Shown here piece after piece: positions 25,309 to 27,129 of a stretch of 48,993 bases of DNA. Position numbers: made by a program. The stretch is taken from positions 2,898-51,890 of the forward strand of contig MQRK01176970.1 of assembly GCA_001938485.1 (NCBI GenBank), in the 5' to 3' direction. Every line of letters starts with the position of its first letter. Position 1 is the first letter of the stretch. Origin of the DNA: Girardia tigrina (lineage: Eukaryota).

Positions 25309-27129
25309 CTGCAGGATTTTTGTATTTTAATAAAAAAATATATACCGTGTTTCACACAATATAAGACACCCCCTAGTCTTATGTAATACCCCACAGCAAA
25401 ATTTTATGAAAAATAGATTTATTACCTTTTCTTATGTATTTCTTCTTCTCATGTGATATTTTTATCTCTCATCGTTGCTGAAATATCACCTAGAAAAAGA
25501 TTTATATTAAAAATTAAAAACTCACAGTTTAATTAATATTATTAAAACAAATGATTAACTATTATATATAATTATATATAATTTTTAATTTTTAAATTTT
25601 AATTTAGTTTTTTTTTCTAAGAAAATGTTTATTAGAAATAGAATATCATAATTAAAAATAAAATTAAAGATTTTTGTTTAGAGTTAAAAATGACAGTTTT
25701 TAGTGCAAATTAATTAAGTAAGTTATTATATAATAAAATTATATATAAATCTATTATATTATTAAAACATTTGTTTTAATAATTGTAGTGTGACCGATAT
25801 TATTCGAATTCAACAGTTTATTTTTATCGAAAAAAACTAATAAAACTTCATAAAATTTTGCTGGGGGGGATTACCAAAGACGAAGGGATGTCTTATATTG
25901 TGCGAAACACGGTAATATAGGAAAAAGAAATAAAGTGGCCTTAATCGTGTGATATACCGAAGGCATCCGGGCCCATAGAGATAACCTTTGACATTTTTGA
26001 TTTGGTGAACGTTTTGGATTATTTTTGAAATATTTGGTAGAAACTTCTTGATTTTCTCATAAAAAGAAATTATTTTCTTTTGAGCCAATTGAAGATCAAC
26101 GGAAAATAAGATCGATGGTCCAATTTGGTCAATTCAATAGCGATAATCACAAATTGTCGCTCTGTGACATTCAAACAAGTCCGAAGCATTTCGAAAAATT
26201 CGACTAATCAATAATCATCACCGCCTGAAAAAAACAAGTTTTCGTCAAACCTCGACAAATGACTTACCCAAGGCTCAGACCCATGAACGATTCGACGAAA
26301 TAAAAACTTGAAATCCCGATTTAATAAAACGATTTCGCCACGAGAAGTGCTACAAATGATTTTGTTCAAGTGCGAATCGACAGAAAGACAGAGATTGGAA
26401 TTATCGATCTCGGACGATCGAGAAAATTAAAATCGTTCAGCTTCATCAAAACTGACGATGAGAGAATCAAGAGTGTCTCCGCACAATCAAACGATCGACG
26501 CATCGATCACTTCCTCATTGAAATCGAAACTCAAAACACGATCGAACTCTAAATCCGGATTCGAACCGATTTTGGGCGAAAAATTGAACACCTTCAAATG
26601 CGCGCTGTCGAATGTCACCAGAGACTTGAATTTCGGATCGATAAAATTACAATAAATCGAATGATCAATGCATTTCGGTTCAAAAACAAAAATCTTCATA
26701 ATCGAAATCTTTATTTATATCAATAAACGTTTTGAATATTTAAAAAATAGGAAATATTATATGATTTTAAAAAAATTTGAAAATAGGAACTAGTTTGAAT
26801 ATTTTACAATTTCGGAGAGAACAAATAATGTCATCTTTCGATTTAAATATGATTTTAGTTATAAGTTATAACACTTAGTTGACGTCAGTTTTCAACAATT
26901 TTTAACAGATTCTATCATCATAAAAAGTCCGAAATATTAAGTAGACGGTCATATGAACATGGAAAGCTCTTGCATCACACTGACACATATATAATTATAC
27001 AATAAACCTTACCTTCATTGGAAATGGATCATCATATTATCAATAATCAAGTCCATAAATAAATAAAAAACTATTACTTTATATAAAATTAAAAATTATT
27101 ATTTTAAATTAATAAATTATATAAATTGA

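What the first reader, a model, noticed from the sequence alone, without database searches (positions are those of the whole stretch)
25930..26699. Second chimera: CPSF1 N-terminus joined in the same frame to a DPH7 WD40 segment, then a possible Pol-A fragment
Seen: on the minus strand one frame runs from an ATG at 26699 through CPSF1-like sequence (to SFDEA, ~26438) directly into DPH7-like sequence ending SGGDD, with two stops and no intron; a third protein-like piece follows. All three share orientation. Inference: same-strand stitching of 200-270-bp pieces suggests template switching between mRNAs or serial deletion of a compact gene cluster. It repeats the 8-12 kb pattern independently, suggesting a genome-wide process.
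Basis: partly seen in the sequence, partly recalled or inferred. Interest (0 to 1): 0.75.

Follow-up and report, generated by a model that had tools for sequence, protein, structure and literature searches.

The report
Dead mosaic of host gene fragments
An 0.8-kb stretch in a transposon-rich, AT-rich eukaryotic region is a dead patchwork holding a clear fragment of the DPH7 gene next to a piece of a different propeller-protein gene, which is a known kind of genomic debris and not a working gene.

Summary
The reading frame is as described: an ATG at 26699 on the minus strand, then protein-like text with 6 in-frame stops in 256 codons.

- **Middle piece (26414-26214):** a real DPH7/WDR85 fragment. 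It is 56% identical to P0003 (E 3.6e-10 in 1.84 billion proteins) and scores E 6.7e-14 against a DPH7 profile. It covers only profile positions 126-203 of 355, and no other DPH7 part lies in the 49 kb.
- **Upstream piece (26699-26430):** not a DPH7 N-terminus. It scores z 1.2, against 9-33 for true N-termini. Its link to the RSE1/DDB1/CPSF1 family is only a weak lead (Pfam E 0.051; Atlas 0.94). CPSF1 itself could not be tested.
- **Third piece:** reads best in another frame and has no family-A polymerase support in Pfam, NCBIfam, PHROGs or the PDB.

The two-gene chimera is therefore supported, the three named parents only in part, and the origin and the "genome-wide process" not at all. No poly(A) tail, target-site duplication, terminal repeats or convincing Helitron ends were found. 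This is a new member of a known kind (a chimeric pseudogene) and of low to moderate interest.

The parts
26430..26699 (-). Piece 1. About 90 codons starting with ATG, with one in-frame stop. It is not DPH7. There is a weak lead to the N-terminus of the RSE1/DDB1/CPSF1 first beta-propeller.
   Evidence: Translation. Pfam PF10433 E 0.051, 13.0 bits against a 26.9-bit cut-off, residues 11-43 on profile positions 2-34 of 351. Atlas top family PF10433, score 0.94, 15 of 30 hits, with BBS-type propellers close behind. No PDB hit at E<=10. Not DPH7: absent from the DPH7 profile search at E<=100, hhalign probability 0.2%, colinear z 1.2.
26214..26414 (-). Piece 2. An internal fragment of a DPH7/WDR85-type WD40 gene, 67 codons, in the same frame as piece 1, with no internal stop. 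It is bounded by stops on both sides.
   Evidence: Exhaustive phmmer: P0003 56% identity E 3.6e-10, P0002 60% identity E 9.9e-13. DPH7 profile E 6.7e-14, positions 126-203 of 355. P0003's relatives are named diphthine methyltransferase-like, methylated diphthine methylhydrolase or WD repeat domain 85. All 9 invariant family columns inside the covered block are kept.
25915..26210 (-). Piece 3. Unassigned and only weakly ORF-like. Its best frame differs from that of pieces 1-2. No polymerase or other family was found.
   Evidence: One stop in the best frame; 118 of 2000 shuffles do as well. Open stretch 26133-25840 in the frame anchored at 26697. No DNA_pol_A or other credible hit in Pfam, NCBIfam, PHROGs or PDB. 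The AF2 model is a single long helix, pLDDT 68.
25343..25914 (.). MITE-like insertion of 572 bp abutting the low-coordinate end of the block. It is not part of the mosaic.
   Evidence: Inverted arms of 68 nt, 88% complementary. ATATA lies on both outer sides. The terminal 24-mer occurs only at these two arms in the window, with 0 expected by chance.
27137..27177 (.). (TA)n microsatellite 437 nt upstream of the ATG. Together with the (TA)n at 25278-25306 it brackets the block.
   Evidence: There are five (TA)n tracts in the window, so the bracketing may be chance.
25278..25306 (.). (TA)n microsatellite on the low-coordinate side, 36 nt beyond the MITE.

Best explanation
The block 26699-25915 (minus strand) is a non-functional mosaic pseudogene.

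Anatomy:
- An internal fifth of a DPH7/WDR85-type gene (26414-26214) is fused in frame to about 90 codons that begin at a start codon. Those codons come from a different gene, probably the N-terminus of an RSE1/DDB1/CPSF1-type propeller protein.
- About 300 nt of unassigned sequence follow, in another frame.
- It cannot make a DPH7 protein. It has stops, lacks four fifths of the gene, and no other DPH7 part lies within 22 kb upstream or 26 kb downstream.

Shown: the DPH7 identity, the abrupt ends of that homology, the non-DPH7 nature of the upstream piece, and the dead state.

Inferred: the origin. I favour a one-step stitching event in which reverse transcriptase switched between mRNAs and ran off at the 5' end of the last template. 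That would explain the shared orientation, the tight junction (16 nt or less) and the fact that the 5' piece starts at its start codon.

I put 'mosaic of at least two genes' at about 0.8 and the RNA-level route at about 0.35.
For: - DPH7 fragment.
- Upstream piece not DPH7: local scores at chance, with 499 of 1000 and 322 of 1000 shuffles as high or higher.
- Colinear test summed over 21 family members: z 1.21, 0 of 21 above z 3. Eight true DPH7 N-termini gave z 9.0-33, with 0 of 200 shuffles as high.
- Segment 3 is 56% identical to P0003, whereas P0003 is 29-39% identical to the other 20 members in that block. An N-terminus of the same gene should therefore have been detectable.
- Different family lead for piece 1.
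- No other DPH7 piece among the 2113 six-frame segments of the window.
- Context that makes retroposition plausible: three RT-bearing element stretches and an intron-free sideroflexin pseudogene in the same window.
- No frameshift inside either of the two identified pieces, which fits one event better than several deletions.
Against: - No A-run follows the 3' piece and no flanking direct repeats were found (reading).
- By the five features listed in PMC2104539 (Background section read), the 5' part should be a full-length RNA copy and the 3' part should reach an RNA 3' end. Here piece 1 is short, the DPH7 piece is truncated at both ends, and the 3' piece is unidentified.
- The CPSF1-family assignment is below Pfam's cut-off.
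- Parent genes, their introns and their linkage could not be examined.
- A tblastn alignment of P0003 does run across the junction, and the colinear z is slightly positive.
Confidence: 0.35

Rival explanations
1. DNA-level patchwork. Short pieces of several genes were copied into a break, by ectopic-template gap filling or a transposon-associated capture of the Pack-TIR or Helitron kind, in AT-rich DNA between (TA)n tracts.
For: - No retroposition hallmark was found (reading).
- An internal fragment truncated at both ends is natural for DNA copying.
- (TA)n tracts lie on both sides.
- DNA transposon remnants and MITEs are frequent in the window.
- Pack-TIRs formed by gap filling are reported in 100 animal genomes (PMC8277862, abstract read).
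Against: - No terminal inverted repeats enclose the block. The neighbouring MITE lies beside it, not around it, and its terminal 24-mer has no third copy.
- Helitron scan: 4 of 16 CTRR|T sites have an upstream hairpin, but the stems are AT-only or nearly so, and one is the (TA)n tract itself.
- A random DNA piece would rarely start exactly at a start codon.
- The shared orientation would have to be chance.
Confidence: 0.27
2. One gene only. The whole of 26699-26211 is the N-terminal half of a single DPH7-like pseudogene whose N-terminus is lineage-specific and unrecognisable, so there is no chimera.
For: - Same frame throughout.
- 102 codons lie upstream of the anchor, against 107-203 in the family and 110 in P0003.
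- The P0003 tblastn alignment spans 26486-26214 across the proposed junction.
- The colinear z is slightly positive: 1.5 with P0003 (24 of 300 shuffles as high or higher) and 1.2 overall.
- DPH7 N-termini are the least conserved part, with P0003 at median 22% identity to the others.
Against: - True N-termini, including the divergent P0003, score z 9-33 in the same test. The window part has 0 of 21 members above z 3.
- The DPH7 profile does not see segments 1 or 2 at E<=100, and hhalign gives 0.2%.
- Two independent tools point to another propeller family.
- The part of the tblastn alignment that lies in segment 2 scores at chance on its own.
Confidence: 0.15
3. In-situ decay. A duplicated tandem cluster of same-strand genes (propeller gene, DPH7, a third gene) lost most of each gene through a few large deletions.
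For: - The first piece keeps its start codon.
- About 420 nt of somewhat less AT-rich non-coding DNA lie upstream (GC 0.26-0.28, against 0.12-0.18 further out).
- The orientation is shared, and no insertion hallmarks are needed.
Against: - It needs two or three large deletions but no small indel inside the surviving 90 and 67 codons.
- No further relic of DPH7 lies anywhere in the window.
- The neighbourhood is transposon debris, not a decayed gene cluster.
Confidence: 0.12
4. Artefact. The block is an assembly chimera or chance open frames.
For: Read support could not be checked. The stop tests on single pieces are not significant alone.
Against: - The DPH7 match is far beyond chance.
- GC and CpG content are continuous across both junctions.
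- The pieces are shorter than typical repeat-driven misassemblies.
- The N runs lie 3 kb and 9 kb away.
Confidence: 0.03

Closest known systems
Chimeric retro(pseudo)genes made by RNA template switching during LINE reverse transcription (bipartite and tripartite chimeras; PMC2104539, abstract and Background read)
   Same: Pieces of different transcripts are joined directly, head to tail, in one transcriptional orientation. There are possibly three parts. The 5' piece reaches the 5' end of its coding sequence.
   Different: - No flanking direct repeats and no A-rich 3' end were found.
- The 5' part is not a full-length RNA copy.
- The middle part is truncated at both ends.
- No LINE or SINE part is present.
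- All identified parts are protein-coding fragments.
Transposon-carried host gene fragments: Pack-MULE/Pack-TIR (PMC8277862, abstract read) and Helitron capture (PMC4778049, passages read; PMC4528327 and PMC1947982, search listing only)
   Same: Short fragments of unrelated host genes lie side by side in non-functional or chimeric arrangements inside transposon-rich DNA.
   Different: No terminal inverted repeats enclose the block. No convincing 5'-TC / CTRR-3' termini with a 3' palindrome were found. No second copy exists in the window.
Ordinary truncated pseudogene of DPH7/WDR85, the WD40 protein needed for the last steps of diphthamide formation on EF2 (PMC5354562, passages read)
   Same: The middle piece is a decayed, non-coding copy of part of this housekeeping gene. 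It keeps all 9 invariant family residues in the covered block.
   Different: Only about one fifth of the gene is present, and it is fused in frame to sequence of another origin.

Membership tests
DPH7 / WDR85 (diphthine methyl ester hydrolase family) | Significant similarity to a family profile and to family members | tested here: met
   Profile built from A2 (21 sequences): E 6.7e-14, 48.6 bits, positions 126-203 of 355. P0003 E 3.6e-10 in a library of 1.84 billion proteins. P0003's relatives carry DPH7-type names.
DPH7 / WDR85 (diphthine methyl ester hydrolase family) | Invariant residues of the family within the covered block | tested here: met
   9 of 9 invariant columns of A2 that fall in the block (L111, L113, S114, G125, H143, W148, G163, G164, D165 in P0003 numbering) are kept in the alignment. 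Of 5 nearly invariant columns, 4 are kept; W140 is not kept, and P0003 lacks it too.
DPH7 / WDR85 (diphthine methyl ester hydrolase family) | Complete propeller, including the conserved N-terminal and C-terminal blocks, in an open frame | tested here: not met
   Among 2113 six-frame segments of the window, only segment 3 matches; the next best has E 1.2. The fragment is bounded by stops. It is a fragment derived from the family, not a gene.
RSE1/DDB1/CPSF1 first beta-propeller (Pfam PF10433); CPSF1 in particular | Reaches the family's curated score | tested here: not met
   13.0 bits against a cut-off of 26.9, E 0.051.
RSE1/DDB1/CPSF1 first beta-propeller (Pfam PF10433); CPSF1 in particular | The match lies at the N-terminus of the profile, as expected for a piece that starts at the start codon | tested here: met
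   Residues 11-43 on profile positions 2-34 of 351. The same family is the top Atlas set, 15 of 30 hits, score 0.94, 182 shared features. PTHB1/BBS propeller N-termini also score 0.94, and the recognition value of 2259 is below the 2300 mark.
RSE1/DDB1/CPSF1 first beta-propeller (Pfam PF10433); CPSF1 in particular | Similarity to solved CPSF160, DDB1 or SF3B3 chains | tested here: not met
   phmmer of segment 1 against the PDB gave 0 hits at E<=10. Foldseek with the AF2 model (pLDDT 51.5) gave 0 hits at E<=0.001 and no such chain among those listed. The model is too poor for this to count against the family.
RSE1/DDB1/CPSF1 first beta-propeller (Pfam PF10433); CPSF1 in particular | Closer to CPSF1 than to DDB1 or SF3B3 | not testable with these tools
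No relative came back from the word-index search, and no comparator could be fetched.
Family-A DNA polymerase (Pol I / POLQ / POLN) | Match to a polymerase profile or a solved polymerase | tested here: not met
   No DNA_pol_A hit at E<=10 in either frame in Pfam, NCBIfam or PHROGs, and no polymerase among the 6 PDB hits at E<=10. HMMER filters drop most matches above about E 0.1, so a very weak likeness is not excluded.
LINE-type template-switch chimeric retrogene (features as listed in PMC2104539) | Parts joined directly in the same transcriptional orientation | tested here: met
   Pieces 1 and 2 share a strand and a frame, with 16 nt or less between them. The orientation of piece 3 rests only on weak ORF-likeness.
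LINE-type template-switch chimeric retrogene (features as listed in PMC2104539) | The 5' part is a full-length RNA copy; the 3' part is a 5'-truncated copy reaching an RNA 3' end | tested here: not met
   Piece 1 is about 90 codons of a family whose first domain alone has 351 profile positions. The DPH7 piece is truncated at both ends. The 3' piece is unassigned and no A-run follows it.
LINE-type template-switch chimeric retrogene (features as listed in PMC2104539) | Flanked by short direct repeats | tested here: inconclusive
   No flanking direct repeat was found in 24000-28500. The flanks are AT-rich and microsatellite-like and the 5' border is unknown. PMC2104539 names this same obstacle for insertions in AT-rich DNA.
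Pack-TIR / Pack-MULE | Terminal inverted repeats enclosing the captured fragments | tested here: not met
   No inverted repeat pair encloses 25915-26720, apart from (TA)n and low-complexity AT matches. The adjacent MITE's terminal 24-mer occurs only at its own two arms.
Helitron with captured gene fragments | 5'-TC and CTRR-3' ends with a short palindrome upstream of the 3' end, inserted between A and T (PMC4778049) | tested here: inconclusive
   In 24900-27400, 4 of 16 CTRR|T sites have a perfect upstream hairpin. The stems hold 0-2 G/C, and one is the (TA)n tract itself. This is not convincing, and other copies for comparison were not available.

The most novel reading that the evidence does not exclude
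This genome has an active or recently active process that stitches exon-sized pieces (200-300 nt) of unlinked genes head to tail in one orientation, for example frequent mRNA-to-mRNA template switching by a resident reverse transcriptase. Such mosaics would then be common genome-wide and could seed new coding sequences. This block would be one instance.
Probability: 0.1. Interest if true: 0.6.

Novelty: new member of a known kind. Interest (0 to 1): 0.25.

Why it matters
On its own it matters little. It is one more dead chimeric pseudogene in transposon-rich DNA. It does show that an annotation pipeline could wrongly call a DPH7-like or CPSF1-like gene here.

It would matter more if a genome-wide census showed many such same-orientation mosaics. 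That would point to a specific and frequent stitching mechanism in this lineage, and to a source of exon shuffling.

The result also shows the value of positive controls. The single-gene reading looked attractive from a tblastn alignment that crossed the junction, and it fell only when true N-termini were put through the same test.

Tried and rejected
1. **Single-gene hypothesis (all DPH7).** It was suggested by the length fit and by the P0003 tblastn alignment across the junction. I rejected it as the best reading after the profile search, hhalign, the local shuffle tests and the colinear test with positive controls.
2. **Word-index searches.** Segment 3 and segment 1 were searched against longer proteins. 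The searches found 8 and 6 candidates, none significant.
3. **PDB phmmer.** Segment 1 gave 0 hits. Segment 3 gave only DDB2 at E 1.9. The third piece gave no polymerase.
4. **Structure route.** The AF2 single-sequence models were poor (pLDDT 51.5 and 68.3). Foldseek on segment 1 gave 0 hits at E<=0.001. The third piece's single-helix model was not searched.
5. **Splicing.** I considered whether the stops lie in introns. No GT..AG interval of plausible length and phase removes them. A 43-nt GT..AG stretch inside segment 3 is coding, because it aligns to the DPH7 family (reading). Every inter-stop segment was searched on its own.
6. **Cluster names.** Names came instead.
7. **RNA genes.** There are none in the window.
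8. **Not checked.**
   - The parent loci, reads and RNA-seq.
   - The closed collections metagenome contigs and viral contigs.
   - The genome-contig scan, which was left unused because it holds only bacteria and archaea.
   - Supplements of the papers.
9. **Other points.** Nothing suggests the window is human (GC 0.21-0.40), so that rule did not come into play. The two N runs were left alone.

Full report
**Setting**

The window is 48,993 nt and AT-rich (GC 0.21-0.40 in 2-kb windows). It has two N runs (22496-22610 and 35711-35908), which I left alone. Nothing suggests a human origin.

It holds no tRNA and no Rfam family at gathering score. What can be named is mostly mobile-element debris:
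- three retroelement-like stretches with RT, RNase H, integrase or zinc-knuckle gag pieces;
- a hAT-type remnant (DUF659);
- three MITE-like inverted-repeat elements;
- a sideroflexin pseudogene.

No intact host gene was seen.

**The observation**

The inter-stop segments are:

| Segment | Coordinates | Length |
|---|---|---|
| 1 | 26699-26490 | 70 aa |
| 2 | 26486-26430 | 19 aa |
| 3 | 26426-26211 | 72 aa |
| 4 | 26207-26073 | 45 aa |
| 5 | 26069-26022 | 16 aa |
| 6 | 26018-25944 | 25 aa |

That makes 6 stops in 256 codons. From 26699 to 26073 the frame has 3 stops in 209 codons, against 14 and 15 in the other two minus-strand frames. Only 55 of 2000 dinucleotide shuffles have any frame with 3 or fewer stops. 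Each piece alone is too short for this test: 355, 361 and 118 of 2000 shuffles do as well. The block is also a GC/CpG island in very AT-rich flanks, with CpG observed/expected 1.73, the highest of 18 islands.

**The middle piece is DPH7**

- Pfam saw only a generic WD40 likeness (WDR55, E 0.0053). The Atlas also gave generic WD40 (0.97). The word-index search found nothing (8 candidates, none significant).
- The exhaustive phmmer search of 1.84 billion representatives gave 7 hits at E<=0.001.
  - Two are repetitive noise (P0001, P0006).
  - Two are WDR55-type (P0005, P0007).
  - Three are close: P0003 (321 aa, 56% identity, E 3.6e-10), P0002 (68 aa, 60%) and P0004 (110 aa, 38%).
- P0003 has 54 relatives at E<=0.001. 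Those that carry a source name are called diphthine methyltransferase-like, methylated diphthine methylhydrolase or WD repeat domain 85. All of these names refer to DPH7. DPH7 is a WD40 protein needed for the last steps of diphthamide formation on EF2 (PMC5354562, passages read).
- I aligned P0003 with the 20 named relatives (21 of the 54; alignment A2) and built a profile. It matches segment 3 at E 6.7e-14, residues 5-71 on profile positions 126-203 of 355, that is 26414-26214.
- All 9 invariant family columns inside that block are kept.
- Nothing else among the 2113 six-frame segments of the window matches the profile; the next best has E 1.2. This is therefore an isolated internal fifth of the gene, not an exon of a working DPH7.

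**Is the 'CPSF1' part just the DPH7 N-terminus?**

- P0003 aligns to segment 3 from its residue 106, and the window has about 100 codons upstream in the same frame.
- tblastn of P0003 gave one alignment, 26486-26214, across the proposed junction.

It did not hold.
- The profile does not see segment 1 or segment 2 at E<=100.
- hhalign gives segment 1 a probability of 0.2%.
- Local scores of segments 1 and 2 against P0003's N-terminal part are at chance (499 of 1000 and 322 of 1000 shuffles as high or higher).
- In a right-anchored colinear alignment of the 102 upstream codons to the N-terminal parts of all 21 family members, the summed z is 1.21, with 0 of 21 above z 3 (36 of 300 and 20 of 200 shuffles as high or higher).
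- Eight true DPH7 N-termini put through the same test give summed z of 9.0-33, with 0 of 200 shuffles as high. That includes the divergent P0003 at 9.0.
- The window is closer to P0003 in the block (56%) than P0003 is to any other member (29-39%). A DPH7 N-terminus decaying at the same rate should therefore have been seen.

I keep the single-gene reading as a rival at 0.15.

**What the upstream piece is**

- Pfam gives one sub-threshold hit, RSE1/DDB1/CPSF1 first beta-propeller (13.0 bits against 26.9, E 0.051). It lies at the very start of the profile, positions 2-34.
- The Atlas gives the same family as its top set (0.94, 15 of 30 hits). BBS-type propeller N-termini are equally high and the recognition value is low.
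- The PDB sequence search, the word-index search and the fold route gave nothing.
It is not a demonstrated membership, and CPSF1 cannot be told from DDB1 or SF3B3 here.

**The third piece**

- In the finding's frame it is broken into segments of 45, 16 and 25 aa.
- It reads better in the frame anchored at 26697, as an open stretch 26133-25840 that runs into the MITE arm.
- Neither frame matches a family-A polymerase or anything credible in Pfam, NCBIfam, PHROGs or the PDB.
- The AF2 model is one long helix.
- My own impression of a polymerase-like pattern is recall only and found no support.

**Borders and hallmarks of origin**

- A 572-bp MITE-like element (25343-25914; 68-nt arms, 88% complementary; ATATA on both outer sides) abuts the block. 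Below it lies plain AT-rich DNA.
- (TA)n tracts lie at 25278-25306 and 27137-27177. There are five such tracts in the window, so this may be chance.
- No inverted repeats or LTRs enclose the block, and the MITE's terminal 24-mer has no third copy.
- No flanking direct repeats were found.
- No A-run follows the third piece (reading).
- A scan for Helitron ends found only AT-only hairpins: 4 of 16 CTRR|T sites, one of them the (TA)n tract itself (hallmarks from PMC4778049, passages read).
The stops cannot be removed by any plausible intron, and all searches were done segment by segment.

**Explanation**

Shown:
- The block is a dead mosaic of at least two host genes.
- The DPH7 homology has abrupt ends.
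- No function as DPH7 is possible.

Inferred:
- How it arose. A one-step stitching fits better than serial deletions, because neither identified piece has a frameshift.
- Among one-step routes I lean toward reverse-transcriptase template switching between mRNAs (about 0.35). It explains the shared orientation, the tight junction and the 5' piece starting at its start codon. RT-bearing elements and an intron-free sideroflexin copy lie in the same window.
- Against it, two of the five features listed for such chimeras in PMC2104539 (Background read) are not met and one is inconclusive.
- The rivals are DNA-level patch repair or transposon-linked capture (0.27; Pack-TIR gap filling in animals, PMC8277862, abstract read), a single-gene pseudogene (0.15), in-situ deletion (0.12) and artefact (0.03).

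**The 'genome-wide' claim**

The 8-12 kb block holds a sideroflexin copy on the minus strand. It is intron-free over profile positions 1-76 and 78-228 of 319, in two frames. A weak TPR-like ORF lies on the plus strand. That is a single-gene pseudogene beside an opposite-strand piece, not same-strand stitching of 200-270-bp pieces. I did not study that block further.

**Verdict**

This is a real feature, a new member of a known kind (a chimeric pseudogene made of gene fragments), and of low to moderate interest.

Still open: the parent loci, read support, expression and copy number. No eukaryotic genome or read collection was reachable.

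Noticed in passing
window 10510-11306 (minus strand), inside the GC island 8951-11300: A sideroflexin pseudogene. It is intron-free over Pfam SFXNs profile positions 1-76 (E 5.9e-27) and 78-228 (E 3.1e-46), with the two parts in different frames. The last third of the profile was not found. It is possibly a processed copy.
   Followed up: partly
window 9032-9415 (plus strand): An ORF-like segment of 128 aa with only weak TPR hits (TPR_1 E 0.007). It lies on the strand opposite the sideroflexin copy, so the 8-12 kb block does not repeat the same-strand pattern of this finding.
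   Followed up: partly
window about 3400-6100 (plus strand): An LTR-retrotransposon-type pol stretch (RVT_1, RT_RNaseH_2, rve). The domains are spread over at least five separate inter-stop segments, so pol is interrupted at least four times by stops or frameshifts. It is described only, and no relatives were compared.
   Followed up: partly
window 29517-32940 (minus strand): A retroelement-like unit bounded by 105-nt direct repeats (97% identical). It has a zinc-knuckle gag ORF that carries one internal tandem duplication, and only part of an integrase core. No RT or protease was detected between them, which implies at least one large internal loss. It is described only.
   Followed up: partly
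window about 38600-39500 (minus strand): A reverse transcriptase (RVT_1) spread over three inter-stop segments, so at least two interruptions. Whether it is of LINE or LTR type was not resolved.
   Followed up: partly
window 41103-41345 (minus strand), with ORFs 40458-41488 around it: A hAT-type transposase remnant (DUF659, E 1.3e-5).
   Followed up: no
window 25343-25914, 23414-23881 and 1786-2219: Three MITE-like elements defined by inverted arms of 68 nt (88%), 103 nt (80%) and 62 nt (89%). The first abuts the finding.
   Followed up: partly
window 13878-14642 (plus strand) and 44699-45025 (plus strand): Long ORF-like segments (156, 98 and 109 aa) with no Pfam hit at E<=0.05. By recall alone they look like transposase-related proteins. 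They remain unexplained.
   Followed up: no
window 24644-25003 (minus strand): A 120-aa open segment in a small GC island just beyond the MITE. It has no Pfam hit at E<=10 and its origin is unknown.
   Followed up: partly
window 25851-26700: The CpG observed/expected ratio is 1.73, the highest of the window's 18 GC islands (the others range 0.61-1.46). The block is full of TCGA-type motifs. The reason is unknown. It could reflect the parents' codon usage or a recent arrival.
   Followed up: no
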